Program-made: the position numbers and the translations under genes
Assembly (NCBI GenBank): GCA_026395595.1
Contig: JAPLYL010000003.1
Span: 12,136-76,135 of the forward strand
DNA length: 64,000 nt
Reading direction: 5' to 3'
From: Candidatus Parcubacteria bacterium
GTDB lineage: Bacteria; Patescibacteriota; Minisyncoccia; Phycocordibacterales; CAIJYI01
The notes under the pieces: model-generated
Told to the model about the DNA's origin: nothing
The model's input: the letters and a program-made list of their open reading frames with translations, nothing else
Databases searched by the model: none
Shown here: positions 9,145-24,140 of the stretch, piece by piece
Layout: every line of letters begins with the position of its first letter
How positions within the stretch are numbered: the first letter of the stretch is position 1

Positions 9145-9404
9145 TCGGTCCGTGAATCCAAAAACTCTTCGTTCGTCATCCTCGCGAATGCGGGGCGACC
9201 TAATTTTGACCTAATTTTTAAGGAGCGAAGCGACTATAAAAATGGAAATACTCTTGTAGTATAATGACCGAAGCGACTATAAAAATGGAAGTACTCTTGT
9301 GGTGCTCCAGAGTATGGCTTAATGACGTGGATCCCCGTATTCGCGAGGATGACGATTTGGGGATATTTTAGTCCAAGGAAATGAGTTTTTGGATTCACAG
9401 TTCG
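9145..9404. repeat. MITE-like palindromic element: ~45-55-bp imperfect terminal inverted repeats enclosing two tandem ~40-bp direct repeats
   Basis: Left arm ggtccgtgaatccaaaaactc...cgtcatcctcgcgaatgcgggg pairs with right arm ccccgtattcgcgaggatgacg...gagtttttggattcac. Internal tandem unit is gaagcgactataaaaatggaa[a/g]tactcttgt[a/g]gt, two copies. Confidence 0.6.
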
Positions 9405-9484
9405 GTATTTTTCCACAATCGCATTATCCGATAATATGGTATTATATACTTAGCAGAGCATTATTCGTTAATTCGTTTAATTTT

Positions 9485-9547
9485 ATGGCAAAAGGACAAG
9501 ATAAAAGAAAAGAAGTGAAGAAACCGAAAAAAGGAGCGAAAAAATAA
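9485..9547 (+). CDS. candidate 20-aa highly basic peptide (MAKGQDKRKEVKKPKKGAKK)
   Basis: Short ORF immediately followed by hairpin aaaaccgcgcaagcggttttttt; no clear SD. Confidence 0.2.
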   Translation: MAKGQDKRKEVKKPKKGAKK

Positions 9548-9631
9548 TTTTGAAAAACCGCGCAAGCGGTTTTTTTATTTCTGTATCTCTTCGGAATTTG
9601 TTATTATAAAGATGAGATAAAAAATAAAAAT

Positions 9632-10240
9632 ATGGAAACCGATAATAACAATCTTCATGTTCTTTGCGAAAAGGAAATAAAGAATTTAAAAACCGAACGC
9701 GACATCTTAAAAGAATCTTATTTCCAATTAAAAGAATTGAAAGAAAAGCTGGAAGAAAGCGAACGGCGTTTCAAGAATATTTTTGATTATACTTCTGTCG
9801 GAGTTTCTGTCGTTGCTCCAGACGGGCACTGGCTGGAAGTAAATGATTCTCTCTGTAAAATTACCGGCTATTCCCGCGAAGAATTGCTTACCAAACAATT
9901 CAATAAAATTACCTATTCCGAAGATGTCGAGAAAAGCGCTGAACTGTCTCGGAAGATTTTATCAGGCGAAGTTGACCACGCCTCTTTGGAGAAAAGATAT
10001 ACTCATAAAAATGGCCACATTGTTTGGGTTAACTTAAGTATTGCTCTCGTGCGAGACGACAAGAACATCCCTTTGTATTTTGTCGTTCATACCGAAGACA
10101 TCACCAAACGCCGCGAAGCCGAAAAAGCCTTAAAAGAAAAAGTAGGCGAGCTGGAAAAAATGAACAGCTTCATGGTAGGAAGGGAAGAGAAAATGATGGA
10201 ATTGAAAAAAGAAATTGAGGAATTGAAGAAAAAGAAATAA
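9632..10240 (+). CDS. PAS-domain protein with coiled-coil flanks and no output domain
   Basis: PAS fold stretch FKNIFDYTSVGVSVVAPDGHWLEVNDSLCKITGYSREELLTKQFNKITY...KNGHIVWV; coiled-coil N- and C-termini. Confidence 0.7.
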   Translation: METDNNNLHVLCEKEIKNLKTERDILKESYFQLKELKEKLEESERRFKNIFDYTSVGVSVVAPDGHWLEVNDSLCKITGYSREELLTKQFNKITYSEDVEKSAELSRKILSGEVDHASLEKRYTHKNGHIVWVNLSIALVRDDKNIPLYFVVHTEDITKRREAEKALKEKVGELEKMNSFMVGREEKMMELKKEIEELKKKK

Positions 10241-10452
10241 TAAAGAAACAGAACCATGCCTATTTTCAGAAGAAGGAGTCCATTAAAATGATGATGCGCC
10301 TCGTGTTCTGTTTGCCAATAAAAATTTCAGCCTGCGAACCGGAATTTTTATGCAAACTTGGAGGAGTCTGTGGATAATAAATTAGCGAGCGACTCTCGTT
10401 CGCAGTATACTGAAATCAGATCGTTAATGTATAAATTTAACAAAATTATTTT

Positions 10453-10965
10453 ATGAATAAGAATTTTTATATTACCGTCGTTATCTTGCTGGCATTTGTT
10501 TTTGTCGGAAACGCAAATGTTTTTGCAGAAGCAAAGAGCGGTGAAAAGATGAGCGAACAGCACAGAAACAATGTTTCAAAAGTTGTTCAAGAACTTGAAA
10601 AGGTTGCCGGTAAAGACGCGGGTATTGGAGAAGAAGTAAAAGCCGTAGCGCAAGAAGAAAAAGATACCGTCACCAGTGTTGCTGAAAAGATGGAAAAGGC
10701 GGAAAATAGAGGAGGTTTCAAAACCTTTCTCGTCGGTTCCGATTACAAAAACTTGGGAGCGTTGAGAAGCGATCTTGTGACAACGCAAAATCATATTGAC
10801 CGCTTGACGAAAGCAATAGAAAGAGCGACAAGCACGGAAGCAAAAACAGCACTTCAGACTCAGATCAACGAACTCAAAGGAATACAGACAAAAGCGGAAA
10901 CTTTCGTTAAAGCTCAAGAAGGAAAGTTCAGTTTGTTCGGTTGGCTGATAAAACTGTTTCAGTAA
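10453..10965 (+). CDS. secreted coiled-coil protein, hypothetical
   Basis: Signal-peptide-like N-terminus MNKNFYITVVILLAFVFVGNANVFA. Confidence 0.5.
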   Translation: MNKNFYITVVILLAFVFVGNANVFAEAKSGEKMSEQHRNNVSKVVQELEKVAGKDAGIGEEVKAVAQEEKDTVTSVAEKMEKAENRGGFKTFLVGSDYKNLGALRSDLVTTQNHIDRLTKAIERATSTEAKTALQTQINELKGIQTKAETFVKAQEGKFSLFGWLIKLFQ

Positions 10966-10990
10966 TCGTTTGGCTTAACTTAAACCAAAA

Positions 10991-11020
10991 CAATCCGCCC
11001 CAAAGGCGGATTGTTTTTAT
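10991..11020 (+). terminator. rho-independent terminator
   Basis: Hairpin aatccgccccaaaggcggatt followed by gtttttatt. Confidence 0.7.
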
Positions 11021-11095
11021 TCTTTCTCATAACTCTATCCTCATCTATATCAGTGGAGATTAATGAATGACGTTAGAACCTCTTTGATTGAAATC
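10997..11095. repeat. ~95-bp intergenic repeat copy R1 (terminator-proximal module containing the TTAGAACC motif)
   Basis: Aligns at about 70% to 11892-11988 (ttttattctt...ctatatc[a/t]gtggaga...ttagaacc..tttgattgaaa). Confidence 0.5.
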
Positions 11096-11249
11096 GAGAA
11101 TAGTCTGTATTTACAAGCGATGTTAGAATTTTCAAAAACACTGAATGCGAAGGGTGTCTAGGTGAGATTCGGGGAAGAGATTAGAACCTCCAAACAAATA
11201 TACTGAAAATATCTTCCGTTGATGCTTAATAGTTGATATAATCACTGGT

Positions 11250-11801
11250 ATGGAAAATGCAAATATTTTTATAGAAAAGGAACGTCCGATGTTGGAAAAC
11301 AAAGAATTATTTTATGAAGTAATGGGTCAAAGAGTCCAAAGATTAAGAGGGAATTCTTATACCGAAATGGCGGGAGAGAACTCGTCGATGGCTCATTTTG
11401 GTGGGGTAGTTTGTAAAGTTCCCGAAGGGAAACTCATTAAAGATGCGGTGATTTATGTCAATGAAGACGATTTTTTTGTGAAAGGAGAAGATTTTACAGA
11501 CATTATTCCTGTCGTTCTCAGGCACGAGATGTTTGAACTGTGGACTTATGTAAAAAACGGCTGGTCACTTTCACCAGCCCCAAAGCGAATTGGAAATGAA
11601 AACAGGGTTAGTGTTGCACACGGCTTAGCTCTTCGGGAAGAATATAGATATGCTGTTGAAATTGGAAAAGCTGAGAGGTATTTGGAATATATAAAAAAAT
11701 GGTCACAAGAACACCCAAGAGAAAATATGGAAGGTTTTATTTCGGAAAATGAGAATGCCTATAAAAAGGTAATATCTCGAACAGGAGAAACAGACAAATA
11801 A
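11250..11801 (+). CDS. hypothetical protein
   Basis: 183-aa ORF flanked by R1/R2 repeats; followed by a terminator hairpin at 11865-11897. Confidence 0.45.
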   Translation: MENANIFIEKERPMLENKELFYEVMGQRVQRLRGNSYTEMAGENSSMAHFGGVVCKVPEGKLIKDAVIYVNEDDFFVKGEDFTDIIPVVLRHEMFELWTYVKNGWSLSPAPKRIGNENRVSVAHGLALREEYRYAVEIGKAERYLEYIKKWSQEHPRENMEGFISENENAYKKVISRTGETDK

Positions 11802-11891
11802 TATCGAAGACGAGCACATGGTCTCACTGAAAATTATTTTAAATAAAAAGTAACTTACTAAAAAAGAACTCTGACTAAAATCAGAGTTCTT

Positions 11892-11988
11892 TTTTATTCT
11901 TCCATATAGTTCTACCTACTTCTATATCTGTGGAGAAGACTACAGGATATTAGAACCATTTTGATTGAAACACAGGCAATACATTTTC
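11892..11988. repeat. ~95-bp intergenic repeat copy R2
   Basis: Second copy of the R1 module; further TTAGAACC motifs at 11948 and 12048. Confidence 0.5.
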
Positions 11989-12094
11989 TTAGAATCGCAG
12001 ATGAGTGGAGTGGGTCAGATACCTCCGATGGTTATCGTTCGTCAACTCGTTAGAACCACAGAAAGGTTAACAAACGTTAATAACGTTAACGTTG

Positions 12095-13021
12095 TTAATT
12101 TTGTGAAAGTTTGGGCTGAAGAATAACCCAATTATACCCAAAAGGGTTGTCTCTTCGTTGCACAGCCATATCTCCAGGAGCTTTAAGCATATAGGTGAGA
12201 ATTATAAAGTTATTGACGAACAGGTTAAAATCAACCATCGTCCTTTTCATAAACCCTAAGACCAGTTCGGCTTCATCCTTGGAATGATGTATTACCTGAG
12301 GCTGAACTTGTTTCGTATCAGAATCAAACATTATATCTGAGATGTTTTTCATACCACCACGGTGGTGTGTCATATCTCTAAGTTTAACCAAATATGTTAA
12401 TGGCTCGAGATTTACCTCTAAGTGGTCAATAAGATTCTGGTATCTCTGGCTTTTATATTCGTCTTTTAGTTTTAGAGATTGCAGTTTCCTTACTATCTTT
12501 ATACCGCTAAGCTCTTTGCCGTTTTCGACACCTTTGTGCCATCCATCAATATTCTCGTCAAGAATATGGCCGAGTATTTGTCCGAGTTGGTCTAACGCTG
12601 ATTTTATTCCCGATAAGAAATAATCAATTTCTCGGTCTAATTCTGGAGACTTTGTTGTTAAGTATATATTTTGGTTTGTATCTTTAAGGCTTTTTTCTCG
12701 AAAAGTTTCAATACTTTCTTTTTGGACTTTTTCGTAATTTCGGAGTGAGTCGTTGGTTTTTGTCAGGATATGCCCCAAGTCAATCATTTGCCCAAAGTGC
12801 TTTTCGTGGGGCTTATCTTCCTTATTCCTGCCAAAGAAGATAAGAACTTCAGCTTGAAGATACATAGGAAGCTGTACTATTTCAGAAAGAATGTAAGAGT
12901 CGATATCATCCTTCGCTTGAAGAACTGTACCAAGTACAAACTTTTCTTTTTTGTTATTTTCTTTATCCATTGATTTAAACAAAATACTTTTATCTTTTCT
13001 TGTGTGCATGCGAACTAGCAA
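12095..13021 (-). CDS. hypothetical protein, third gene of the lexA-divergent operon
   Basis: 308-aa ORF, no recognisable motif; 20-nt gap to the upstream gene. Confidence 0.5.
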   Translation of the reverse strand: MLVRMHTRKDKSILFKSMDKENNKKEKFVLGTVLQAKDDIDSYILSEIVQLPMYLQAEVLIFFGRNKEDKPHEKHFGQMIDLGHILTKTNDSLRNYEKVQKESIETFREKSLKDTNQNIYLTTKSPELDREIDYFLSGIKSALDQLGQILGHILDENIDGWHKGVENGKELSGIKIVRKLQSLKLKDEYKSQRYQNLIDHLEVNLEPLTYLVKLRDMTHHRGGMKNISDIMFDSDTKQVQPQVIHHSKDEAELVLGFMKRTMVDFNLFVNNFIILTYMLKAPGDMAVQRRDNPFGYNWVILQPKLSQN

Positions 13022-13041
13022 AGTGGACTTTCATTAAAGGA

Positions 13042-13881
13042 CTACGTTTTATCTTCATTATGTCCAGCTTCCAATTTTATTACGATTTCATTCATTGTAT
13101 AGTGTACAAATTGTTTTCCGAGTTCGGTTAACTCATATTTCTTATCGTCATCGAAAGCTGAGGTTGCATATCTGGTCCCGTTGCTCTTTGATTTACTGCG
13201 CTGGGGAGTCTGAAGTATTATGCTACCGTTGTAGCCACGTTCTTTGTGTTGGGTTATGACGTGCCCAGTACTCAAGTCGTGTATGAGCAGTTTAAACAAA
13301 TCCGCTTCCGCTGAATCTTCTCGAGCTGGGTCTCCGTGTATTTCTTGCCATATTTGCTGGCGAGTGCAACCTGGATTTTTATAGACTTCTCGAATAACCG
13401 CAAAATGTGCTTCAGAATAAATATCTATCCATGTTACAAACATGCGCACAACATCATCACTACATATTTGAGATGAGGCAGAATTTGATAAAAGGTTGCG
13501 CACTAATTTTCTTTTTTCCTCACTTTCTGCAGCCGACCAGTCTCGGAAACATTTTTTTACTATTTTTAGATATTCTGGACTTTCCAAACGTTCACGTATT
13601 TTATCGTCTGTTTGGTCTAGTCGAGTTAAAACTTCAAAAATAGTTTGTCCAATTTCCTTCATCTCATCCTCCTGTAGTTTAAGCCAGCTTCCAAATATAT
13701 TGTTAAACCTTTTTTGTTCTTGTTCTGACCAACTTGCGCCTATACCACCAATGGCTCCACCCGCAAAAGGGACAGAGCTTAAACAAGCTAATGCAAATCG
13801 AGCGACTTTTGGTCCCGCGCCACTTTTTAACGCGTCATCAAGCTGTATTCTCAGCTCGTCTTTTTTTTGATTTTCGTCCAT
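13042..13881 (-). CDS. hypothetical protein, second gene of the lexA-divergent operon
   Basis: 279-aa ORF; 2-nt gap to the upstream gene. Confidence 0.5.
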   Translation of the reverse strand: MDENQKKDELRIQLDDALKSGAGPKVARFALACLSSVPFAGGAIGGIGASWSEQEQKRFNNIFGSWLKLQEDEMKEIGQTIFEVLTRLDQTDDKIRERLESPEYLKIVKKCFRDWSAAESEEKRKLVRNLLSNSASSQICSDDVVRMFVTWIDIYSEAHFAVIREVYKNPGCTRQQIWQEIHGDPAREDSAEADLFKLLIHDLSTGHVITQHKERGYNGSIILQTPQRSKSKSNGTRYATSAFDDDKKYELTELGKQFVHYTMNEIVIKLEAGHNEDKT

Positions 13882-13883
13882 AC

Positions 13884-14528
13884 CTACGTTTCAATAGTTA
13901 TTCCAAGTTTTGCTGATAAACTATTTAGACGTTCTCCGTCTCCCGAAATCTTCTTTTTCCTGTCGTTAATAAAATTAGATAATTCTGATTTAATTTTAGA
14001 ATGTCCTTCTTGAATATCTTTGTTTACCCAACTTATCCAATCTAACAAGTGCTTTTTTTGCGAAGTAACAGCGTTTGATACCCCCGTGTCGTCATGAGCA
14101 AATCCATAGCCTTTAATGTCTACAGAAAATGAAACATAATCATTATGCCAATCAAGGCTTTCTGGAGACCAACTGAATGTGCGGGTTGAAGGGTCAAGAG
14201 TTTTAATTATTTCTAGTGTATCGTTTGTGATTAAGGGGAGAACAATTTCAAGTGACTCATATTCCCATTCTTTATCTCCATCAGATTGATAAAAATCATC
14301 CCTCATGTGGGTGGGCACAATCCTCATTTCTTTTTTGAGTCGCATTATTTCTTTTCGATCAGTGTCAAACTCAATAGGGAGGAGAACATCTTCTGATGTT
14401 AAAAGCTCCTCTAGAAATTCCTCTGTGGTTTTATTGAGAATTTTTTCGTTAGGGCTAATTTGTATTTGTTTTTCCAGAGCACTTAAGAGTGCACGATAAT
14501 AATCTGAAATTGATGGTTTGTTAAACAT
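13884..14528 (-). CDS. hypothetical protein, first gene of the lexA-divergent operon
   Basis: 214-aa ORF, acidic, no motif. Confidence 0.5.
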   Translation of the reverse strand: MFNKPSISDYYRALLSALEKQIQISPNEKILNKTTEEFLEELLTSEDVLLPIEFDTDRKEIMRLKKEMRIVPTHMRDDFYQSDGDKEWEYESLEIVLPLITNDTLEIIKTLDPSTRTFSWSPESLDWHNDYVSFSVDIKGYGFAHDDTGVSNAVTSQKKHLLDWISWVNKDIQEGHSKIKSELSNFINDRKKKISGDGERLNSLSAKLGITIET

Positions 14529-14565
14529 GTTATTTGTGGATAACTTTTATTGCTTTTAAATTTCT

Positions 14566-14592
14566 TTCAAATATAATATAAGTATATTTGAA
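14566..14592. promoter_or_regulatory. perfect 10-bp inverted repeat TTCAAATATA-N7-TATATTTGAA, candidate operator (LexA box?)
   Basis: Lies in the 85-bp divergent intergenic region between lexA and the three-gene operon. Confidence 0.45.
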
Positions 14593-14613
14593 ACTAATTT
14601 GAAGGTCAAGTTT

Positions 14614-15276
14614 ATGCTGGGGAAAAAACAAAAAAAGATTTACGATTATATCACTTCGTATATAAAGGATAATGAAATACCGCCTTCTCTTGATGAAATT
14701 GCGGAGCACTGCTCTTTGGGGTACGCGTCATCTGCTCACTATCACGTAAAAAAACTTGAGGAGGAAGGATATCTTGAAAGGTACGCAGGAAAACCGCGGG
14801 GGATAGGTCTTTATGCAAAAAATGAAGTGCACTCTCCTCGATTGAGGAATATGGGGCTTGATTCTATCGGTATTCCTGTTCTCGGTACTGCCAATGCGGG
14901 ACCAGCCACTCTCTTTGCTGAAGAAGAAGCAATAGGACATTTAAAGGTTTCTAAAAGTATCGTTAAAAAGAAAGACGGGGTGTTTGCACTCAAGGTTGAC
15001 GGAGATTCAATGAACAAAGCACAAGTTAATGGGAAAAGCATATCGGATGGTGATTTTGTGGTTATAGATTCTGAATACAAACATCCGAAAGATGGAGACT
15101 ATGTACTTTCTGTACTAGACGGATGCGCAAACTTAAAGAAATTTTCTCGGGATAAAAAAACTGGTGAAATTTTACTACTATCGGAATCAGACAACCCAAA
15201 ACATAAACCGATTTATGTATCTAGCGAAGATAGTTTTATGGTGAACGGAAAAATCATTGCTGTGGTAAAGAGATAA
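14614..15276 (+). CDS. lexA: LexA repressor (S24 peptidase); ATG at 14614 with GAAGG SD, ORF track TTG at 14599
   Basis: N-terminal wHTH KKIYDYITSYIKDNEIPPSLDEIAEHCSLGYASSAHYHVKKLEEEGYLER. C-terminal peptidase with VDGDSMNKA (Ser) and NGKIIAVVKR (Lys). Confidence 0.85.
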   Translation: MLGKKQKKIYDYITSYIKDNEIPPSLDEIAEHCSLGYASSAHYHVKKLEEEGYLERYAGKPRGIGLYAKNEVHSPRLRNMGLDSIGIPVLGTANAGPATLFAEEEAIGHLKVSKSIVKKKDGVFALKVDGDSMNKAQVNGKSISDGDFVVIDSEYKHPKDGDYVLSVLDGCANLKKFSRDKKTGEILLLSESDNPKHKPIYVSSEDSFMVNGKIIAVVKR

Positions 15277-15406
15277 TTTTCTGTCACCTCGTTCGTGCTA
15301 CTACAAGTAATTTCGGGCGTCTTGTTATTTGCACATATTAAAATAATGTGCTATAATCAACAGCAGAATTTACTTTGAAATAACTTAAATAAAAGAGGAG
15401 AAAAAC

Positions 15407-17425
15407 ATGACGACTAATGCAATTACAGAAGACAAATATCGTTGGATGGAAAGCAATGAAAAGCCCGAAGTTCAAGAGTGGCTGAAACAACAATCCGAAA
15501 CAACAGGAAAATACCTTGATGGTATTCCTGTTCGTAAAGAATTGCGCGAGCAGTTTCAAAAGCTGTTTTCTTTGGATACTGTCGGAACACCAGCACCAAG
15601 AAAGGGGCTTTATTTTGTGATGAAACGCAGAGGCGACCAAGATATGTCGGTACTCTATGTTTCTGAAGGAATTTCAGGAATCCCGCGTGTTCTCATTGAT
15701 CCGAATACTCTTTCGGAAGATAAAACGGTTACAATAAAACAGTGGAGACCCTCTCGTGACGGCAAACTTCTTGCGTACGGATTATCAAATGCTGGAAATG
15801 ATAAGTTCGCCATTTATGTGATGGACGTTGTCACAGGAGTAAAACTTTCTGATGAAATTCCTGATGACTTTTACCCATCATTCTTATCGTGGAATACCGA
15901 TGGAACAGGATTCTGGTATCGGAAACATGACCCGCGAATGCCGATGTCAGAAGCTAAGCTTTACCTACGCATTTATTTTCATGCATTGGGAAGCAAGTAC
16001 CAAGACGACCTTCTTGTTTTTGGTGAAGACCTTGAAAAAGATGATTATCCAGGAATGACTATCTCGCAGGATGGACGATACATGCTTGTTGAGGTCGGAG
16101 GAAGAGACCGCCGAAGCGGAAAATGGTGGAATGAGATTTACCTGCGAGACCTTGCACTTTCAGACGTAAAATTTGTCAAAGTAATGGCTCGTATTCCTGA
16201 TATAACATACGATGGAAGATTACACAGAGATAGGCTGTATGTTATCACAAATCAAGATGCACCACGTATGCAAATTCTGGAAATGGATTTGAACGACGCT
16301 GTTTCAGGTCATGTGATTCCCAAGGTTCTCATACCAGAAGGAAAAGGCGTTATCGACGAAGTCGCTTTTGTCGGAAATAAGATTTTTGTCGCCACTCTTC
16401 AGAATGTTTATTCAGCTATTCACGAATATAACCTACACGGGGATTTTGTTAGCGAAGTTGTATTACCGTCTATCGGCTCCGCAGGAGGTTTCTCTTGCGA
16501 AAAAGAAGGGGAAGAACTTTTCTTTTCATTCGAGTCATTTGCTATTCCGCGTACGATTTATCGGTTGGATTTAGTAAAGAACAACCTTTCTATATTTGCA
16601 CAAATGGAAGCAGGTTTTGATGTTGAAATGATAGAAACAAAACAGGTGTGGTATCCGTCAAAAGACGGAACACAGATTCCGATGTTTCTTGTGTATAAAA
16701 AGGGAGTAGTTCTTGATGGCAATAACCCAACAGTTCTTTATGGATATGGCGGATTTAATATCAGTCTTACTCCATCTTTTAACAAAGGAATCATTCCGTT
16801 TGTATTGCATGGCGGTATTTATGCCATAGCAAATATTCGTGGAGGTGGCGAGTTTGGAAAAGAATGGCATGAAGCAGGAATGCAGAAAAACAAGCAGAAT
16901 GTTTTTGATGACTTTGCAGAAGCGGCAAAATGGCTTATCTCGTCTAAATATACAAGAAAAGAAAAACTTGCAATAGAAGGCGGAAGCAATGGCGGTTTGC
17001 TTGTTACTGCAATCGTTATACAAAATCCTGGCCTTGTTGAAGCGGGAATTGCGTCGGTGCCGGTAACTGACATGTTGCGTTATCACCTCTTTTTCGGCGG
17101 AGTTCATTGGATTCCAGACTATGGAGACCCTGACAATGAAGAGATGAGAAAGTATTTGCTCGGATACAGTCCGTATCACAACGTGAAAGACGGAGAAAAA
17201 TATCCAGCAATGCTTATTGTAACATCGGATAATGATGACCGTGTGCATCCAATGCATTCATATAAAATGACCGCTCGTTTGCAGGAAGCAAATACTTCGA
17301 AGTATCCAATTCTTCTTCGTGTGGAATTGAAAGCGGGGCATGGTGGTGCGAGTGCTATCACCAAGTATGTTGAAGAACAAGCCGATGTGTGGAGTTTTGT
17401 ATTTGATCAGCTGAAAATGCTTTGA
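15407..17425 (+). CDS. prolyl oligopeptidase (S9A family)
   Basis: N-terminal propeller and C-terminal alpha/beta hydrolase with GGSNGGLLV nucleophile elbow; terminator hairpin at 17448-17478. Confidence 0.85.
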   Translation: MTTNAITEDKYRWMESNEKPEVQEWLKQQSETTGKYLDGIPVRKELREQFQKLFSLDTVGTPAPRKGLYFVMKRRGDQDMSVLYVSEGISGIPRVLIDPNTLSEDKTVTIKQWRPSRDGKLLAYGLSNAGNDKFAIYVMDVVTGVKLSDEIPDDFYPSFLSWNTDGTGFWYRKHDPRMPMSEAKLYLRIYFHALGSKYQDDLLVFGEDLEKDDYPGMTISQDGRYMLVEVGGRDRRSGKWWNEIYLRDLALSDVKFVKVMARIPDITYDGRLHRDRLYVITNQDAPRMQILEMDLNDAVSGHVIPKVLIPEGKGVIDEVAFVGNKIFVATLQNVYSAIHEYNLHGDFVSEVVLPSIGSAGGFSCEKEGEELFFSFESFAIPRTIYRLDLVKNNLSIFAQMEAGFDVEMIETKQVWYPSKDGTQIPMFLVYKKGVVLDGNNPTVLYGYGGFNISLTPSFNKGIIPFVLHGGIYAIANIRGGGEFGKEWHEAGMQKNKQNVFDDFAEAAKWLISSKYTRKEKLAIEGGSNGGLLVTAIVIQNPGLVEAGIASVPVTDMLRYHLFFGGVHWIPDYGDPDNEEMRKYLLGYSPYHNVKDGEKYPAMLIVTSDNDDRVHPMHSYKMTARLQEANTSKYPILLRVELKAGHGGASAITKYVEEQADVWSFVFDQLKML

Positions 17426-18394: not shown

Positions 18395-21103
18395 ATGAAT
18401 AAACCATGTTTGGTGCTTACTCAATCGAGAGAAGAAAGCGGGTATAACGATTTTATCGGGCGTTTTTATCATTTTCCAGAAAAATATCTTGGTCAATTCA
18501 AGGAACTTCCTGCGGAATTTGTTTATTACGAGCCGACAAAAAGCGGGGATGGAGTATATTTCGGATACGGAAGGATAGAAAATCAGCCGACAGCAGACAA
18601 ACGAGAGGACGGACATTATTTTGTAGAGATTTCAGATTATAAGCCTTTTGCAAAACCAGTTCCGTTTAAAAACGAGACCGGGATTATACGAGAAGCGGAC
18701 TCGCCTCATTATAATGCGCAAAATGCGGTACGGAAACTGCCAACACTAACTCTGGATGAAATTTGTCTCGATGGGAAAGTTCGTCTTAATTTCAAGGCGG
18801 ATGCTCACCTCATCAAGGTACTCGGAGAACAACTCATTGCTTCGGAGAAGGTCGGGATACTCGAACTTATTAAAAACGCATACGATGCGGGAGCATCATA
18901 TTGCAGGGTTAGAATCGAAAATATTCCTGGTATGTTGCCCGCGCCGGAAAGCGAATGCTTGTTTCCTGAACTCTCCGGACCAGTAATCATAATTGATGAC
19001 GATGGTTATGGAATGACTCGTTCGGTCATTGAAGACGGCTGGCTGCGACCAGCATCCACTATCAAAACAACGGTGAAAGAAACGATGCGAAAAGAAAGAG
19101 AGAAGGCCGCCGCCTCGGGAAGACTCGGTTCTTATGATAAGCTGATCGACGAAATTAAAAAGGAACGCGGGGGAAGAATACCGTTGGGCGAAAAAGGCGT
19201 TGGCCGGTTTGCTTCGCACCGTCTGGGAAAACGTCTTTTGTTAACGACAAAAACCCGTGATCTTGACTACGAGTATGTGCTCGACATAGATTGGGATCAG
19301 TTTGACAGCGATGATGGTGCGGTTAAAAATCTTGACGCTGTCGGCATAAACTTATACCGCCAAAAGCCATCAAGGAACTATGGAAAGAAAGGGTCCGGAA
19401 CTCAGCTTGTGATACACGGTGGGCGTAAAGGTTTTTCTTGGGAACCGGAAACGGTTGGTGATTTACAAAGATCCATCTCCAGTTTGAATTCCCCTCAGGT
19501 TGTACAAAAACCGGATATGGAATTGCCGTTTAAGGCGTTTTTGGAATGTCCGCAAATAGGATACACAAAGAATGATGCCGAAACACTTACTTTTCCCCCC
19601 ATCTTTTCATTTGACGGACAAATCGATGAAAACGGAATTTTGAAATATACGCTAAAATTTACCCCGCCCAAGTCGGTACCGATGTCGCCCGAAACGACGG
19701 AAGACAAAAACTTTGATCTGAGGAAGGCCAAACCGGAACACTGGAAGAAAACGGAAACGGAAGAAGGTTTTCGAAAACCTGAATCCGGCCCTTTCCGGTT
19801 GCACGTGGATGCATGGTACAGAACCGGTCCGTGGATTGTGGGACCCGAGGTGGATTCGTTTACAAAACGACTTGACGACTTTGGCGGAGTATCGATTTTC
19901 AGAGACGGAATCAATGTTTTCCCCGCGGAATGGGGTGCGGAAACGGATTGGCTTGATTTGTCGACAAGACACATTAAACGGGGACGTCATCTTTCCTACT
20001 ACAACATAATCGGTAATCTGGAAATCAACCAAGAGAATAATATTAATCTCATTGATAAGACAGACCGCGAAGGGTTAATCAAAAACAAAGCGTATAACGA
20101 TTTGGTGCTCCTCACACGGGCGGCCATACTCAATATCCTCGAAATATCTTTTGAAGGAAAGCGCGACCAATATAGCAAATTAATCGGTGAGGTGGTACGA
20201 GACCCCGCTGCATTAAAAAATTATGCAAAACAAGGATCGTCTCTCATTTCATCGATTAAAGAAAAGTACCCGTTCGAACAGGATCCCTATGATATTCTCG
20301 ATTCTGTTGGTAAACCCGCAGAGCGTGGAGAAAATCTCGTTAATCTTTCAACGTCGCTTAAAAACCTTCAGAAGAGTCTTGATCTTATGAAAGAGTCTCA
20401 AGAAATGCTCACCGAACAAGCGGGTTATGGATTGGCTGTCGCCGTTTCAGTACACGAGATTGCGAAGATCGCCGCAAATTTCTATACGGGGGTGTCTCAA
20501 CTTTTGAAGTCCGATCGACAGGATGCCGACAAACTTCGAAATCTCAAAGACGCATCGGCCTCCTTGCAGTCGGAACTTAAACGGCTCAGTCCTCTTCGGG
20601 CTGTTCGTACCGAGGCGCGTACCGAATTCCCAATAACGAAACCGATCAATTTTGCCGTTGAGGTCTTTCGATCCAGATTCGAAAAAATGGGGGTGGAAGT
20701 AAAAGTTAATACCAAAGAACAATTTTCCGTATATGGCAGATACGGCGCATTTGCTCAAGTCTTTTCGAATTTATTTGATAACAGTTGCTATTGGTTAGAG
20801 TCGATGCCGCGCAAAAACAGAAAAATTGAAGTCCTCATAGATGCAAAGCATAGAACGATAACAGTCGCCGATTCGGGTCCGGGTATCGCTGAGGTGATTT
20901 TGCCGTACATTTTCGAGCAGGGCTACAGTTTGAAAATTCCACCAAGCGGTCTCGGCTTATATATCTGCAAACATTATATGCATAGTATGAGGGGAGATAT
21001 TTACCTGACGTTGGACAGAGAAAGAATAAACGAACTTTCTGGGGCGCAATTTACTCTGGATTTGGGAAAGGTCGAATCAGAACGTCCGATAGCAAAGAAA
21101 TAA
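18395..21103 (+). CDS. 902-aa multidomain protein: N-terminal unknown domain, GHKL/MORC-like ATPase, C-terminal histidine-kinase core (DHp-like plus HATPase_c)
   Basis: N-box ELIKNAYDAGAS, G1 IIIDDDGYGM and G2 GEKGVGRFASHRLG. C-terminal candidate H-box VSVHEIAKIA followed by ITVADSGPGIAEV...GLGLYICKHYMHSMRGDIYL. Confidence 0.7.
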   Translation: MNKPCLVLTQSREESGYNDFIGRFYHFPEKYLGQFKELPAEFVYYEPTKSGDGVYFGYGRIENQPTADKREDGHYFVEISDYKPFAKPVPFKNETGIIREADSPHYNAQNAVRKLPTLTLDEICLDGKVRLNFKADAHLIKVLGEQLIASEKVGILELIKNAYDAGASYCRVRIENIPGMLPAPESECLFPELSGPVIIIDDDGYGMTRSVIEDGWLRPASTIKTTVKETMRKEREKAAASGRLGSYDKLIDEIKKERGGRIPLGEKGVGRFASHRLGKRLLLTTKTRDLDYEYVLDIDWDQFDSDDGAVKNLDAVGINLYRQKPSRNYGKKGSGTQLVIHGGRKGFSWEPETVGDLQRSISSLNSPQVVQKPDMELPFKAFLECPQIGYTKNDAETLTFPPIFSFDGQIDENGILKYTLKFTPPKSVPMSPETTEDKNFDLRKAKPEHWKKTETEEGFRKPESGPFRLHVDAWYRTGPWIVGPEVDSFTKRLDDFGGVSIFRDGINVFPAEWGAETDWLDLSTRHIKRGRHLSYYNIIGNLEINQENNINLIDKTDREGLIKNKAYNDLVLLTRAAILNILEISFEGKRDQYSKLIGEVVRDPAALKNYAKQGSSLISSIKEKYPFEQDPYDILDSVGKPAERGENLVNLSTSLKNLQKSLDLMKESQEMLTEQAGYGLAVAVSVHEIAKIAANFYTGVSQLLKSDRQDADKLRNLKDASASLQSELKRLSPLRAVRTEARTEFPITKPINFAVEVFRSRFEKMGVEVKVNTKEQFSVYGRYGAFAQVFSNLFDNSCYWLESMPRKNRKIEVLIDAKHRTITVADSGPGIAEVILPYIFEQGYSLKIPPSGLGLYICKHYMHSMRGDIYLTLDRERINELSGAQFTLDLGKVESERPIAKK

Positions 21104-21107
21104 AATC

Positions 21108-22541
21108 ATGCGCTATTCCGTTTGCATTATCGATGATGAAATACCTGTTGCCGGAGTTGAAGGTTTTCGGGATACCGAATTGCTTAATTCGTCAAATCTC
21201 GGGCAGCTACTGCGACAAAATGAGCATCCTTGGACAGATGAAGTGGTAAAGCACTTCGTTCAAACGTTGTTGGAGGAAAAGGAGGATGACGGCACTTCGA
21301 AATGGGATGTATATGCTTTTACAAATCCCGCGCTTTATATCAACCATTTGGAAAACGGAACGTTTCGCCCCGATCTCTTGGTTTTTGATTGGGATTATTC
21401 CACCGGAGGTGTTGATTCCGAAGCACGTCTGAAGGAAATCCTCGAAAGAACCTTTTGTCTCGTGTTTGTCTTTTCAAAAGCCGACAGAGAAGACGAAATA
21501 AACGCCATTTTGAGCACACCGGAGTTTTTGGAATATCAAGGTCGGGTGAGTTATCTCAAAAAAGGCGATCCGGCTGCGGACAATGTCAATACTCTTTTGG
21601 AAAAAGCGAATGAAATGGATAAGAACAATTTTTCTTTTAAGTTTGCTGGCAGGTTACGGCGCGAGTCTTTGAAAATCATGGATAGAACTTTGTCCGATCT
21701 TGGTAAAGCGACAGTCAGTGATATTAAAAATTATCTTGCCTTGGAGGACGGAGAAGAAAAGCATGGGCTTATTGACTTTATTGCTGATCGCTTTCGGTCA
21801 GGTCTTGTTGAAACGGATTTTCCTGAATTGACTGAGGCGTACACCACACCCGCAACAACGGGTACAGGAGGGATTGATAATAACCTCGTAAAAAAGATAT
21901 GGGCATATCGACTTTATCGACCCCTTGATGGAACAGTCTCTTTGGCAAATGAACTTGTGCGTCGCGGAGATATTATCAAATACGAAGACAACCATTACCT
22001 TGTTGTATCAGCGGCTTGTGATTTAAAAAGATTTTGGAAAAAAAATTTCGGAACAATAAATTTGCTCCCGCTTCATAGACTTCATAACTCGAATACGGAG
22101 TTAAAAGATTTGCTGAGTTTTTGTTTGGACCCCGAAAATGTCTCAAAAAAATTAAAGACCGGAAAATTTCAAAATCTTACTGGAAGGTTGGGTGATCTTC
22201 CAGACGGTCCGTTCATTTTGCCGTTCTTGAAAGAGAACGACAACTACGAATGTTTCGTCGTACTTCCAAAAGAAATGTCTGGGCATAAAATTCCTGTTCA
22301 TCGAGACGTTTCTGCATTAGAATTAGATAAAAGAAAGGAAGCTTCTCTAAAATATGAGTGGTTGGGAGCGGAAAAGTTGTGTTCGGTATCTGAGCCATTC
22401 CTATCTGCCATAATTCAGCATACGTTTGGGACTATCGGCGGGTATGGAACCCCAGACTACCCTAAGGAGATGAAAAAAATCTTTGAGGAAATTTTAGATG
22501 AGTTCACCGCTGCTATTCCAGCGGAAAGAATACAAACATGA
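21108..22541 (+). CDS. 477-aa protein with degenerate receiver-like N-terminus and uncharacterised C-terminal domain
   Basis: SVCIIDDE (beta1 acidic pair), RPDLLVFDWDY (candidate phospho-Asp), CLVFVFSKAD (Thr/Ser position), VSYLKKG (Lys). Start 4 nt after the upstream stop; ATGA overlap with dcm. Confidence 0.45.
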   Translation: MRYSVCIIDDEIPVAGVEGFRDTELLNSSNLGQLLRQNEHPWTDEVVKHFVQTLLEEKEDDGTSKWDVYAFTNPALYINHLENGTFRPDLLVFDWDYSTGGVDSEARLKEILERTFCLVFVFSKADREDEINAILSTPEFLEYQGRVSYLKKGDPAADNVNTLLEKANEMDKNNFSFKFAGRLRRESLKIMDRTLSDLGKATVSDIKNYLALEDGEEKHGLIDFIADRFRSGLVETDFPELTEAYTTPATTGTGGIDNNLVKKIWAYRLYRPLDGTVSLANELVRRGDIIKYEDNHYLVVSAACDLKRFWKKNFGTINLLPLHRLHNSNTELKDLLSFCLDPENVSKKLKTGKFQNLTGRLGDLPDGPFILPFLKENDNYECFVVLPKEMSGHKIPVHRDVSALELDKRKEASLKYEWLGAEKLCSVSEPFLSAIIQHTFGTIGGYGTPDYPKEMKKIFEEILDEFTAAIPAERIQT

Positions 22542-23578
22542 AAAAATTCAACGCAATAGATTTGTTTTCCGGATGCGGCGGTTTAACACAGGGATTAAAA
22601 ACCGCCGGATTTGAGGTGCTTGCAGCTTTTGATAATGATGACGACTCAATAGCGGCATATCGGTTAAATCACCCGGAAGCCGTTATTTTCGAGGGCGACA
22701 TCCGCAAAGTACAAACGGCGGACGTTAAGAAATTATTGAAGGGAGAGCCCTTGCATCTTTTAGCTGGTTGCCCGCCTTGCCAGGGTTTTTCCTCTATGCG
22801 ACGGCGCAATAATAAAAGAACCAAAAACGATTCTCGAAACAACCTGATTTTGGAATATCTGCGATTTGTGAAAGAACTCGAACCGCTAACGATCATGATG
22901 GAAAATGTTCCCGGTCTGAAAAATTATCATTTGTTTCAGTACACAATGCGCGAATTGCAAAAACTCGGATATAATCCGAAATATCAAGCTGTTAAGATTC
23001 AAGAATACGGAATTCCGCAGCGGCGCAAGCGTCTCGTTGTCGTCGGTTCGTTGCTTGGCGATATTAATATTGCTGGCCCGACAATGGAAAAAATGACGGT
23101 TCGAGATATGATCGGTCACATAGAATCGGTTGCTGAAACGAAAGACCCGATTCATAAAATCGTCGCGTCGCATACACCGGAAGTGATGAAGCGCATAAAA
23201 GCCACTCCCAAAAATGGTGGGAGTCGTTCGGATCTTCCCAAAAAATACGAACTCGAGTGCCACAAAGAAGAAGGGGTGGGGTTTAATGACGTTTACGGTC
23301 GCTTGCGGTGGGACGATTATTCAACGACAATGACTGGCGGTTGTTTAAATCCCTCCAAGGGTCGTTTCTTGCACCCGGAAGAAAATAGAGCGATCACGGC
23401 AAGAGAAGCGGCACTTTTGCAAACTTTTCCTAAGGACTACAAATTTCCGGACCGTATTTCAAAAACTTCAATCTCGTTGTTGATAGGCAACGCCCTTCCG
23501 CCGAAATTCAGCCACATTCAATCAACCAATATTTTGGAACACCTAAAAGAATTTGAGATCAAAAATAAAACGCACTAA
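22538..23578 (+). CDS. dcm: DNA (cytosine-5)-methyltransferase
   Basis: Motif I FSGCGG, motif IV GCPPCQGFS, motif VI ENVPGL, motif VIII QRRKR, motif X GNALPP. Confidence 0.9.
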   Translation: MKKFNAIDLFSGCGGLTQGLKTAGFEVLAAFDNDDDSIAAYRLNHPEAVIFEGDIRKVQTADVKKLLKGEPLHLLAGCPPCQGFSSMRRRNNKRTKNDSRNNLILEYLRFVKELEPLTIMMENVPGLKNYHLFQYTMRELQKLGYNPKYQAVKIQEYGIPQRRKRLVVVGSLLGDINIAGPTMEKMTVRDMIGHIESVAETKDPIHKIVASHTPEVMKRIKATPKNGGSRSDLPKKYELECHKEEGVGFNDVYGRLRWDDYSTTMTGGCLNPSKGRFLHPEENRAITAREAALLQTFPKDYKFPDRISKTSISLLIGNALPPKFSHIQSTNILEHLKEFEIKNKTH

Positions 23579-23939: not shown

Positions 23940-24140
23940 AACTACAACTAAATAAGTATTGACCTAACCCACCGGGTCTGCCGATGGTATGGTCAGAGAG
24001 TCGATCAAGCATAAAGAACCCGTCAGGGGGTTTGCTTGATCGCCATATCGGGAAACCGGTATGAAGGGCTTCGGCTCTTACCCGTGGCGGGCTTTTTGTA
24101 CCCGAAACCGCGGTTATAAATAAGACGATCAAGCAAATTT
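23940..24140 (+). promoter_or_regulatory. structured 5' leader (candidate cis-regulatory RNA) upstream of 24141 gene
   Basis: About 190-nt ORF-free leader with nested hairpins (gatcaagca...tgcttgatc) and a short cccgtggcggg-ctttttg terminator-like stem before the start codon. Confidence 0.3.

What the first reader, a model, noticed from the sequence alone, without database searches (positions are those of the whole stretch)
12095..15276. lexA divergently paired with a three-gene operon of unknown proteins, separated by a perfect 10-bp inverted repeat
Seen in sequence: LexA (wHTH plus S24 Ser/Lys peptidase) lies 85 bp from, and divergent to, three tightly spaced genes (214, 279 and 308 aa) with no recognisable motifs. 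TTCAAATATA-N7-TATATTTGAA sits in the intergenic region.

Established: lexA commonly neighbours SOS-induced cassettes (sulA, imuA-imuB-dnaE2). These three proteins resemble none of them by eye.

Inference: a lineage-specific SOS-controlled module, either DNA-damage tolerance or an abortive-infection/defence cassette held off by LexA.
Basis: partly seen in the sequence, partly recalled or inferred. Interest (0 to 1): 0.6.

Follow-up and report, generated by a model that had tools for sequence, protein, structure and literature searches.

The report
LexA-linked candidate anti-phage gene pair
A DNA-damage-sensing repressor (LexA) in a candidate-phyla-radiation bacterium sits back-to-back with a mobile two-gene cassette. 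One of those proteins shares a domain with TIR- and nuclease-type immune proteins, so this is probably a damage-inducible anti-phage switch, not a DNA-repair operon.

Summary
The sequence features are real. lexA (14614-15276) lies 85 bp from three minus-strand ORFs, and the 10-N7-10 palindrome is the core of a 49-bp imperfect inverted repeat. It covers the -10 regions of both divergent promoter-like sites and the spacer of the A-B one.

The "trio" is not one unit:
- **A and B:** A (214 aa) and B (279 aa) form a conserved pair, 2 bp apart.
- **C:** C (about 291 aa) is an unrelated gene. Elsewhere it occurs alone, often beside a serine recombinase.

Eleven distinct A-B loci were examined:
- Eight carry a LexA or LexA-like S24 repressor directly upstream, two divergent and six co-directional.
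- One carries an XRE-HTH plus ImmA-like protease pair instead.

A metagenomic locus with a 64%-identical LexA keeps the same operator and promoter, with 83% DNA identity.

A matches the N-terminal half of the PADLOC candidate PDC-S54. The A domain is fused elsewhere to TIR or PD-(D/E)xK-like domains. B belongs to a family of about 3,900 clusters found on mobile elements. It has a hydrophobic Gly-rich helix, a winged helix and weak Abi-alpha similarity.

Best reading: a mobile, LexA-repressed candidate abortive-infection module. Binding, cleavage and defence activity are all untested. It is a new variant of a known kind.

The parts
14614..15276 (+). lexA: winged-HTH plus S24 self-cleaving repressor, 220 aa from ATG 14614. 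The mechanical ORF begins at TTG 14599.
   Evidence: Pfam LexA_DNA_bind 1.8e-13 and Peptidase_S24 3.6e-21. TIGR00498 scores 125.7 bits against a cut-off of 110.95. The start was set by alignment to the 64%-identical L026 protein. The Ala-Gly site (NAG), the GDSM serine and the LKKF lysine are present, and the Gly, Ser and Lys columns are invariant in the alignment with the LexA-like proteins of three other cassettes.
14555..14603 (.). Candidate operator: a 49-bp imperfect inverted repeat with 21-nt arms. Its core is the perfect TTCAAATATA-N7-TATATTTGAA at 14566-14592. It contains TTTCAAA/TTTGAAA-type half-sites spaced 10 bp apart on each arm.
   Evidence: It is conserved in L026, which has TTTCAA-N17-TTGAAA and TTTGAAACnnATTTGAA at the equivalent positions. 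The intergenic region is 83% identical, while the two LexA proteins are 64% identical. Protein binding has not been tested.
14581..14609 (-). Promoter-like site for the A-B transcript: TTGACC (14609-14604), N17, TATACT (14586-14581). The right arm of the palindrome fills the spacer and the -10 lies in the palindrome centre.
   Evidence: 10 of 12 matches. The same TTGACT-N17-TATACT is read in L026 at 1241-1269. This is a consensus match only.
14550..14577 (+). Candidate lexA promoter: TTGCTT (14550-14555), N16, TATAAT (14572-14577). The -10 lies inside the palindrome.
   Evidence: Read from the sequence. L026 has TTGCTC-N17-TATTAT in the aligned position. The -35 is weak, and this is an inference.
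14535..14543 (-). Perfect DnaA-box 9-mer TTATCCACA, 6 nt upstream of the ATG of gene A.
   Evidence: It is exact at the equivalent place in L026 (1308-1316). Its significance is unknown.
13884..14528 (-). Gene A (214 aa): a standalone copy of the N-terminal domain of the PADLOC candidate PDC-S54, inferred to be a sensor or adaptor.
   Evidence: PADLOC PDC-S54 1.9e-17, covering profile positions 7-202 of 410. There are 13 close homologues. A profile search finds only 119 clusters among 1.84 billion representatives, bimodal between about 210 aa and about 375-420 aa. The fusions carry TIR (TIR_2 about 1e-20) or a PD-(D/E)xK-like C-terminus. The AlphaFold model has pLDDT 86 and no Foldseek match in PDB or BFVD.
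13042..13881 (-). Gene B (279 aa): inferred effector. It has a conserved hydrophobic Gly-rich segment (residues about 26-50), an all-alpha core and a C-terminal winged helix.
   Evidence: 3,928 homologues, many 60-75% identical across phyla. Abi_alpha matches weakly, 20 bits against a cut-off of 29, in 9 of 26 members. KD19 hydropathy is 1.6-2.0 at residues 26-50. The winged helix is supported by Foldseek matches to MarR/PadR (probability about 1, E 0.08) and PDB histone H1/H5 (E 0.02). The start is 2 bp after A's stop.
12095..12970 (-). Gene C (about 291 aa; the mechanical ORF of 308 aa runs from TTG 13021). It is adjacent but independent and is not part of the conserved module.
   Evidence: Nine homologues of 281-294 aa, none next to A or B. 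In L007-L010 it is divergently paired with a large serine recombinase. It has no Pfam, PADLOC, PHROG or PDB match. An invariant LRDxxHH (Rx4H) motif was seen by eye only.
11859..11896 (.). Bidirectional terminator-like hairpin with 16-nt perfect arms and T-runs on both strands. It closes the minus-strand transcript downstream of C.

Best explanation
Proposal: lexA plus genes A and B form a small mobile regulatory and effector module. It is a candidate abortive-infection (anti-phage) cassette whose transcription is gated by a self-cleaving LexA-type repressor.

Proposed mechanism:
1. In undamaged cells, LexA dimers occupy the 49-bp inverted repeat. This repeat covers the -10 regions of both face-to-face promoter-like sites and the spacer of the A-B one. 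Both lexA and A-B are therefore kept low.
2. RecA-ssDNA filaments form through DNA damage or through replicating or degraded phage DNA. LexA then cleaves itself at its Ala-Gly site using the Ser/Lys dyad, and A-B is derepressed.
3. A is a sensor or adaptor domain. In other proteins the same domain is fused directly to TIR or PD-(D/E)xK-like killing domains.
4. In this split version, A acts on B. B is an Abi-alpha-like protein with a membrane-seeking glycine-rich helix and a winged helix. It arrests or kills the cell.

Gene C is a separate cargo gene.

Shown: gene content, synteny, conservation of the operator and promoter, and the domain fusions.
Inferred: LexA binding, induction by damage, the A-B interaction, and the defence phenotype.
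For: Linkage:
- Eight of 11 distinct A-B loci have a LexA or LexA-like (wHTH plus S24) gene directly upstream.
- Two are divergent: the window and L026.
- Six are co-directional: L004, L005/6, L013, L014, L107/8 and L109/10.
- One more (L111) has an XRE-HTH plus an HExxH ImmA/M78-like protease in that position. That pair is the other classic damage-responsive repressor system.
- Three of the repressors pass the LexA equivalog cut-off and five score 75-88 bits.
- Among about 80 B-only loci, S24 proteins are near B in only L054 and L032, so the repressor tracks A-B.

Operator:
- The palindrome is unique in 64 kb and extends to 21-nt arms.
- It is conserved with the -35 and -10 elements in L026. 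DNA identity is 83%, against 64% LexA protein identity.
- The gene on the far side of lexA differs between the two loci: a Dam-like methylase (read by eye) in L026 and a prolyl oligopeptidase in the window.

Defence character:
- A matches PADLOC PDC-S54 at 1.9e-17.
- The A domain is fused to TIR in four clusters and to a PD-(D/E)xK-like domain in many more.
- A-B neighbours include Hachiman (HamA plus helicase), DNA methylases, AAA_13, R.HinP1I, serine recombinases and a terminase.
- B recurs on mobile elements and in 7 IMG/VR contigs.
- Abi_alpha is B's only recurrent Pfam signal.
- Abi-alpha is a proven single-gene prophage Abi of 272 aa (PMC6356687).

Precedent: damage-responsive repressors that gate immune operons are established for CapH/CapP (bioRxiv 10.1101/2022.04.27.489752; PMC13228613).
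Against: - No experiment exists for any component. PDC-S54 is only a computational candidate, and no paper in the library mentions it.
- B's Abi_alpha match is below Pfam's threshold and PADLOC finds nothing for B.
- A has no structural neighbour that would indicate a biochemical activity.
- The window's LexA passes the LexA equivalog threshold. It could therefore be the organism's only, global LexA, with A-B as just one regulon member.
- Absence of further operator copies was shown only for 64 kb containing no known SOS genes.
- The operators of the co-directional loci are not recognisably similar.
- A was not found in IMG/VR.
- B was not found in cultured phages or plasmids.
- In the co-directional loci the cassette is co-transcribed with its repressor. 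That arrangement fits constitutive low-level expression as well as it fits induction.
Confidence: 0.55

Rival explanations
1. This is the immunity region of a prophage or integrative element. The LexA-like protein would be the element's CI-type master repressor, controlling induction or excision. A-B would be lysogen-expressed superinfection-exclusion 'moron' genes, as in lambda cI-rexA-rexB. On this reading A-B are ON with the repressor instead of being induced by its loss.
For: - Six loci have the order repressor, then A, then B on one strand with gaps of 4-10 bp or a small ORF between. This is the lambda cI-rexAB layout.
- L004 and L005 carry a terminase-like gene, DNA methylases and large serine recombinases nearby.
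- The recombinases near these cassettes are 54-73% identical to each other.
- The window has a serine recombinase abutting the tmRNA 3' end at 25.6-27.2 kb, and a GC dip over 9.2-15.8 kb.
Against: - No phage structural or replication genes lie next to the window or L026 cassette.
- No element boundary was found.
- In the divergent loci the single operator overlaps the A-B promoter, which predicts repression of A-B and not co-expression.
- A and the window's LexA have no relatives in IMG/VR.
- A and B have no PHROG match, so they do not match PHROG families such as RexA/RexB.
- This rival still makes A-B an anti-phage pair. It differs only in the regulatory logic.
Confidence: 0.2
2. A-B is a toxin-antitoxin or addiction module that stabilises the mobile element. 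LexA would couple it to the SOS response, as with tisB, hokE, symE or yafNO. It would have no dedicated role against phages.
For: - The two genes are tightly coupled, 2 bp apart.
- The context is a mobile element.
- B has a hydrophobic segment typical of small membrane toxins.
- SOS-regulated toxin-antitoxin modules are established in E. coli (my own knowledge).
Against: - B is most often found alone, without A or any conserved small partner. It is therefore not an obligately neutralised toxin.
- A is fused in cis to TIR or nuclease-like domains, which is sensor-effector architecture and not an antitoxin.
- Neither protein matches a known toxin-antitoxin family.
Confidence: 0.1
3. This is the host's global SOS LexA, with an SOS-induced DNA-damage-tolerance or cell-cycle operon next to it.
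For: - The protein passes the LexA equivalog cut-off.
- lexA is commonly autoregulated and often neighbours SOS genes (PMC8565304).
- B has a winged helix, so it might bind DNA.
Against: - There is no similarity to SulA, ImuA/B, DnaE2, UmuC/D or other repair families.
- The A domain's fusion partners are TIR and restriction-endonuclease-like domains.
- The cassette moves between phyla with different flanks.
- No copy of the operator lies elsewhere in the 64 kb.
Confidence: 0.08
4. The adjacency is chance. lexA and the neighbouring genes would be unrelated, and the palindrome would be an AT-rich accident.
For: The region is AT-rich, and the core of the repeat is made of TATA-like sequence.
Against: - The LexA-like gene is linked to A-B in 8 of 11 loci.
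- The palindrome has an expected frequency of 0.02 per window.
- It is conserved above the level of the coding sequence in L026.
Confidence: 0.02

Closest known systems
PADLOC phage-defence candidate PDC-S54 (single-gene candidate, profile of 410 positions)
   Same: Gene A aligns to profile positions 7-202 at 1.9e-17. Full-length relatives of 414-415 aa were recovered in Saccharibacteria and Planctomycetota MAGs.
   Different: A is only the N-terminal half. The C-terminal PD-(D/E)xK-like half (GKTDIYL...CECKIW, read by eye) is missing, and a separate, unrelated gene B follows instead. PDC-S54 itself has no published validation that I could find.
Abi-alpha (Pfam PF14337 Abi_alpha/DUF4393; E. 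faecalis V583 prophage 6 ef2833)
   Same: It is a single protein of similar size (272 vs 279 aa) carried by prophages and mobile elements. It is the only Pfam family that recurs across the B family, in 9 of 26 members with a best E-value of 7.4e-5. It causes premature lysis of infected cells (PMC6356687).
   Different: Every score is below Pfam's gathering threshold, for example 20 bits against 29. Only about 90 residues align. B adds a Gly-rich hydrophobic N-terminal segment and a C-terminal winged helix. PADLOC models do not detect it.
CapH/CapP (and CapW/BrxR): DNA-damage-responsive transcriptional switches attached to immune operons such as CBASS and BREX
   Same: The logic is the same. 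A repressor encoded at the edge of an immune operon is inactivated proteolytically in response to ssDNA or DNA damage, which raises expression of the operon (bioRxiv 10.1101/2022.04.27.489752; PMC13228613). One A-B locus (L111) actually carries an XRE-HTH plus M78-like protease pair in that position.
   Different: Here the switch is a one-protein LexA-type S24 self-cleaving repressor, presumably dependent on RecA*. It is not a two-protein HTH plus metallopeptidase pair. I found no description of LexA-type switches dedicated to a defence cassette in the searched library.
Phage lambda cI-rexA-rexB immunity operon
   Same: An S24 self-cleaving repressor is followed on the same strand by a two-gene abortive-infection pair. 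Six A-B loci have this order.
   Different: No sequence relationship was detected, and A and B have no PHROG hits. The repressor has a LexA-type winged HTH and not a lambda-type HTH. In the window and in L026 the arrangement is divergent with a shared operator.
Secondary or accessory lexA genes (e.g. Leptospira interrogans lexA2; motif divergence after lexA duplication)
   Same: These are LexA paralogues with their own palindromic operator that regulate a local set of genes instead of the whole SOS regulon (PMC3789691; duplication and divergence model in PMC8565304).
   Different: Whether this genome has a second lexA is unknown. The genes under control here look like immune genes, not repair genes.

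Membership tests
LexA (NCBIfam TIGR00498 equivalog) | N-terminal LexA-type winged HTH (PF01726) | tested here: met
   LexA_DNA_bind 1.8e-13, residues 7-68.
LexA (NCBIfam TIGR00498 equivalog) | C-terminal S24 domain with the Ser/Lys dyad and an Ala-Gly (or Cys-Gly) cleavage site | tested here: met
   Peptidase_S24 3.6e-21. NAG, GDSM and LKKF are present, and the Gly, Ser and Lys columns are invariant in the alignment with the LexA-like proteins of three other cassettes. Those proteins have Cys-Gly, as in UmuD.
LexA (NCBIfam TIGR00498 equivalog) | Whole-protein score above the curated cut-off | tested here: met
   125.7 bits against a cut-off of 110.95. L026 scores 124.5 and L107 136.8. The other five cassette repressors score 75-88 bits and fail.
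LexA (functional definition: repressor of a canonical SOS regulon) | Operator copies upstream of recA, uvr or translesion polymerase genes | not testable with these tools
   No further operator copy lies in the 64-kb window, but no repair gene was found among the larger ORFs scanned. The rest of the genome could not be reached.
LexA (functional definition) | Binding to its own promoter and RecA*-stimulated self-cleavage | not testable with these tools
   A conserved palindrome overlaps both promoters. Binding and cleavage need biochemistry.
PADLOC PDC-S54 | Match to the PDC-S54 profile | tested here: met
   Gene A: 1.9e-17, 61.8 bits, but only profile positions 7-202 of 410.
PADLOC PDC-S54 | Single polypeptide that carries the C-terminal (PD-(D/E)xK-like) half | tested here: not met
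   A ends at 214 aa. B gives no PADLOC hit at E up to 1. Full-length 414-415-aa forms exist elsewhere.
Abi_alpha (PF14337) | Score at or above Pfam's gathering threshold | tested here: not met
   B scores 20 bits against a cut-off of 29, E 7.6e-4. Nine of 26 family members hit at E up to 0.01, with a best of 7.4e-5.
Abi_alpha (PF14337) | Abortive-infection phenotype (premature lysis on infection) | not testable with these tools
   Known only for E. faecalis ef2833 (PMC6356687).
CapH/CapP-type regulator pair | XRE-type HTH repressor plus an M78/ImmA-like metallopeptidase next to the immune operon | tested here: not met
   The window has a single LexA-type protein instead. The pair is present in the related locus L111, with HTH_3/HTH_31 and an HEAGH protein matching Peptidase_M78 at E 1e-3.
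Lambda Rex (RexA/RexB) | Sequence relationship to RexA or RexB | tested here: not met
   A and B have no PHROG family match at E up to 0.1.
HEPN superfamily (considered for gene C) | Rx4-6H motif in an all-alpha domain that matches a HEPN family model | tested here: inconclusive
   An invariant LRDxxHH (R198, H203) appears in the alignment of 9 homologues.

The most novel reading that the evidence does not exclude
LexA paralogues may have been repeatedly captured as dedicated, portable switches for an uncharacterised immune module. If so:
- The A domain would be a new phage-sensing or adaptor fold shared by TIR, nuclease and split (A+B) effectors. It has no match in PDB or BFVD.
- B would represent a very large family, about 3,900 clusters at 90% identity and 60-75% identical across phyla, of unstudied abortive-infection effectors.
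- Genome-reduced CPR bacteria would license cell suicide through RecA-sensed ssDNA, with possible extra input from DnaA through the conserved DnaA box at the A-B leader.
Probability: 0.3. Interest if true: 0.7.

Novelty: new variant of a known kind. Interest (0 to 1): 0.55.

Why it matters
- **CPR defences:** Little seems to be known about how CPR/Patescibacteria defend themselves against phages (my general impression, not checked here). This locus offers a compact, testable candidate of three genes plus one operator.
- **Regulation:** It would extend the emerging rule that immune operons are gated by DNA-damage-responsive repressors (CapH/CapP, WYL regulators) to the classic one-protein LexA switch. 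It would also show lexA paralogues travelling with their target genes.
- **New families:** It flags two protein families for study. One is a small sensor-like domain with a new fold that is swapped between TIR, nuclease and split effectors. The other is a very abundant, highly conserved mobile-element protein (B) with no annotation.
- **Annotation:** 'LexA' calls in MAGs may sometimes be cassette-specific regulators and not SOS master regulators.

Tried and rejected
- **Three-gene unit:** Rejected. C's nine homologues are never next to A or B. C shows no profile similarity to the roughly 190-aa 'D' proteins, or to the 303-aa protein, that follow B in other loci.
- **Family assignments for A, B and C:** NCBIfam, PHROGs and PDB sequence searches gave nothing usable. 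The only signals were a weak histone-H1-like winged-helix match for B, a 14.9-bit isocitrate dehydrogenase match for C, and two weak matches of C to PHROGs of unknown function.
- **Wider regulon:**
  - No other copy of the palindrome or its half-site pairs lies in the window or in about 110 fetched loci, apart from L026.
  - IMG/VR has no exact copy.
  - The window has no Gram-positive-type GAAC-N4-GTTC box.
- **Common operator in the co-directional loci:** Only unrelated short palindromes were found.
- **Element boundary:** blastn-short found no repeat of the tmRNA 3' end beyond chance.
- **Cultured sources:** B has no tblastn match in cultured phages or plasmids. A and the window's LexA have no relatives in IMG/VR.
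- **Patescibacteria SOS paper:** Sanchez-Osuna et al. 2017 is not held in the library. The published Patescibacteria LexA motif could therefore not be compared.

Full report
**1. What is in the sequence**

ORF listing and domain scans confirm a LexA gene on the plus strand. It has LexA_DNA_bind at 1.8e-13 and Peptidase_S24 at 3.6e-21. It scores 125.9 bits on the NCBIfam LexA equivalog TIGR00498, whose cut-off is 110.95. A 64%-identical homologue from another locus aligns from ATG 14614 (MLGKKQKKIYDY against MISQKQKQVYDF).

The Ala-Gly cleavage site, the GDSM serine and the LKKF lysine are all present.

The palindrome TTCAAATATA-N7-TATATTTGAA lies at 14566-14592. It is unique in the window even with three mismatches, against 0.02 expected. 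It is the core of a longer repeat with 21-nt arms at 14555-14575 and 14583-14603, 86% complementary.

The minus strand carries three genes:
- A: 13884-14528, 214 aa.
- B: 13042-13881, 279 aa, starting 2 bp after A's stop.
- C: a 308-aa ORF from TTG 13021. Its homologues are 281-294 aa, which places its start at ATG 12970, 71 bp after B.

**2. The trio is a pair plus a passenger**

A has only 13 close homologues of 212-218 aa. One is the identical NCBI entry from a 'Candidatus Parcubacteria bacterium' MAG. In every locus recovered, A is followed within 0-3 bp, or with a short overlap, by a B homologue.

C has nine homologues, and none is near A or B. In two lineages C sits divergently, 31-57 bp away, from a large serine recombinase. 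C gave no match in Pfam, PADLOC or PDB, and only weak PHROG matches to families of unknown function. An invariant LRDxxHH (Rx4H) motif hints at a HEPN-like protein. That is a reading by eye and not a test.

**3. LexA travels with A-B**

Eleven distinct A-B loci were examined.

| Arrangement | Loci |
|---|---|
| LexA, divergent from A-B | window; L026 |
| LexA-like, co-directional, 4-10 bp before A | L004; L005/6; L013 |
| LexA-like, co-directional, 265-bp gap | L014 |
| LexA or LexA-like, co-directional, with a small DUF2188 gene between | L107/8; L109/10 |
| XRE-HTH plus an HEAGH, M78/ImmA-like protease | L111 |
| No repressor: Hachiman genes upstream | L001-3 |
| No repressor: GIY-YIG plus a HATPase/sigma-70 region 4/DnaA-C protein upstream | L019 |

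Three of the repressors pass the LexA equivalog cut-off: the window at 125.7, L026 at 124.5 and L107 at 136.8 bits. Five score 75-88 bits. They are only 35-37% identical to the window's protein.

Among about 80 loci retrieved through B alone, an S24 protein lies near B in only two besides L026. The repressor therefore tracks the A-B combination.

It is met for C but clearly not for A-B.

**4. The operator**

L026 is a 3.2-kb metagenomic contig with the same divergent layout. A weakly Cas2-like small ORF (Pfam E 0.0077) sits between its operator and A. The gene beyond its lexA looks like a Dam-type methylase (read by eye), not the window's prolyl oligopeptidase.

Its intergenic DNA aligns to the window's at 83% identity, while the LexA proteins are 64% identical. 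One block, AGTATATTTGAAACTnATTTGAAnGTCAA, is nearly invariant. Both loci have TTTCAA-N17-TTGAAA and TTTGAAACnnATTTGAA. No other fetched locus or window position has them.

A sigma-70-like promoter for A-B reads TTGACC-N17-TATACT at 14609-14581, matching 10 of 12 positions. Its spacer is filled by the right arm of the repeat and its -10 lies in the repeat's centre. L026 has TTGACT-N17-TATACT. A weaker candidate lexA promoter, TTGCTT-N16-TATAAT, places its -10 in the repeat as well.

One operator controlling two face-to-face promoters is the simplest reading. Binding itself is inferred and has not been shown.

**5. What A and B look like**

*Gene A*
- A matches the PADLOC candidate PDC-S54 at 1.9e-17, but only its N-terminal half.
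- An exhaustive profile search over 1.84 billion representatives finds just 119 clusters. In nearly all of them the domain is N-terminal, and lengths are bimodal.
- The long forms carry a TIR domain (TIR_2 about 1e-20 in four clusters) or a domain of about 200 aa with a PD-(D/E)xK-like GKTDIYL...CECKIW signature read by eye.
- The AlphaFold model of A is confident, with pLDDT 86. It has three helices, a small sheet and a 60-residue C-terminal helix.
- The model has no Foldseek neighbour in PDB or BFVD.

*Gene B*
- B belongs to a large family of 3,928 hits, many 60-75% identical across phyla, including Acidobacteria.
- The window's B is closer to solo copies (up to 75%) than to the Bs of most other A-B loci (41-46%), which suggests module shuffling.
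- B is usually solo or has variable partners: Hypoth_Ymh, M78-like and M50-like proteins. It often lies next to serine recombinases and occurs in seven IMG/VR contigs.
- It has a conserved hydrophobic Gly-rich segment at residues 26-50 (KD19 1.6-2.0), an all-alpha core and a C-terminal winged helix.
- Its only recurrent Pfam signal is Abi_alpha, below threshold, in 9 of 26 members.
- Abi-alpha is an experimentally shown prophage Abi of 272 aa that causes premature lysis (PMC6356687).

**6. Mechanism proposed**

A LexA-type repressor keeps the cassette low. RecA-ssDNA generated by damage or by phage replication triggers self-cleavage and derepression. A is the sensor or adaptor domain that is elsewhere fused to killing domains. 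Here it works with B, a membrane-seeking, winged-helix, Abi-alpha-like effector, to stop the infected cell.

The logic parallels CapH/CapP-gated immune operons (bioRxiv 10.1101/2022.04.27.489752; PMC13228613). L111 shows that this very cassette can use that alternative switch.

The co-directional loci also resemble lambda cI-rexA-rexB. The main rival is therefore a prophage or element immunity region in which A-B are co-expressed with the repressor. That reading changes the regulatory sign but not the anti-phage role.

The other rivals have little support. Against a toxin-antitoxin addiction module: B is mostly solo, and A is fused to effectors in cis. Against an SOS repair operon: there is no repair homology, and the fusion partners are immune-type domains.

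**7. Limits**

- Nothing here is experimental.
- PDC-S54 is only a computational candidate, and no paper in the searchable library mentions it.
- Whether this LexA is the genome's only LexA could not be determined.
- The window holds no further operator and no GAAC-N4-GTTC box. No repair gene was found among the larger ORFs scanned, so there was no upstream region to inspect.
- The published Patescibacteria LexA motif could not be consulted.

**8. Context and verdict**

The cassette lies in a low-GC stretch, 0.33-0.39 over 9.2-15.8 kb against 0.41-0.51 in the flanks. A HATPase plus unknown plus Dcm operon lies at 18.4-23.6 kb. A large serine recombinase abuts the tmRNA 3' end at 25.7-27.6 kb. 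This suggests a mobile or defence island, although no boundary was found.

Verdict:
- The 'defence cassette held off by LexA' reading is the best supported, but for two genes and not three.
- The module is mobile and not lineage-specific.
- It is a new variant of a known kind, namely immune operons under damage-responsive repressors.
- It is of moderate interest. The upside would come if the A domain and the very abundant B family prove to be true immune components.

Noticed in passing
window 14535-14543 (minus strand); L026 1308-1316: A perfect DnaA-box 9-mer, TTATCCACA, lies 6 nt upstream of gene A's ATG, between the promoter and the start codon. It is exact at the equivalent place in L026. 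The window has four exact copies in 64 kb (10369, 14535, 37444, 38509). L019 is an A-B locus without LexA, and its upstream protein has a DnaA C-terminal DNA-binding domain.
   Followed up: partly
L054 2070-3857 (minus strand): A single 595-aa ORF fuses a complete LexA (LexA_DNA_bind 4.5e-20 plus Peptidase_S24 3.9e-31) to an N6/N4 DNA methyltransferase (3.2e-48). It is divergent, 110 bp away, from a B homologue. This is an unusual repressor-methylase fusion.
   Followed up: no
window 25656-27257 (+) and 27172-27571 (-): A large serine recombinase (Resolvase, Recombinase and Zn_ribbon_recom domains) has a 3' end that overlaps the 3' end of the tmRNA gene (Rfam 114.7 bits). This is probably one end of an integrated element. 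No matching repeat was found elsewhere in the window.
   Followed up: partly
window 18395-23578 (+): An operon encodes a 902-aa protein with two HATPase_c-type domains, a 477-aa protein with no family match, and a C-5 cytosine DNA methylase. It looks like a restriction or defence-type system a few kb from the lexA cassette.
   Followed up: no
window 23961-24079 (+): A LOOT RNA motif (Rfam RF03000, 73.4 bits against a gathering score of 46.4) lies between the methylase and the serine recombinase.
   Followed up: no
L007-L010 (C homologues P0021, P0022): Homologues of gene C lie divergently, 31-57 bp away, from large serine recombinases that are 56-100% identical to one another. C may be cargo or an accessory factor of a small serine-recombinase element. 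In the window no recombinase is adjacent.
   Followed up: partly
window 12063-12098 and 11859-11896: An AACGTT-rich overlapping palindrome (TTAATAACGTTAAC/GTTAACGTTGTTAA) spans gene C's stop codon. A hairpin with 16-nt perfect arms and T-runs on both strands, 200 bp further on, looks like a bidirectional terminator.
   Followed up: no
L014 2433-3005; L107 7560-8126; L109 5066-5665: A conserved protein of about 190 aa ('D') follows B in three A-B loci. It carries WRNV[IV]AH, an RNxxxH HEPN-like motif read by eye. It has no Pfam match and no profile similarity to the window's gene C.
   Followed up: partly
L026 1333-1611; L107 5752-5997; L109 3336-3575; L111 1512-1790: Different small genes are inserted between the repressor and A in other loci. 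L026 has a weakly Cas2-like 92-aa ORF, two loci have DUF2188, and one has DUF3892. The window has none.
   Followed up: no
window 9200-15800: A GC dip to 0.33-0.39, against 0.41-0.51 in the flanks, covers a PAS-domain gene, two unknown genes, C, B, A and lexA. This is consistent with horizontally acquired DNA.
   Followed up: no
L005 4008-5324; L107 747-2078; L017 5845-7188: The large serine recombinases near A-B or B cassettes in unrelated samples are 54-73% identical to each other. The cassettes may ride on one family of recombinase-driven elements.
   Followed up: partly
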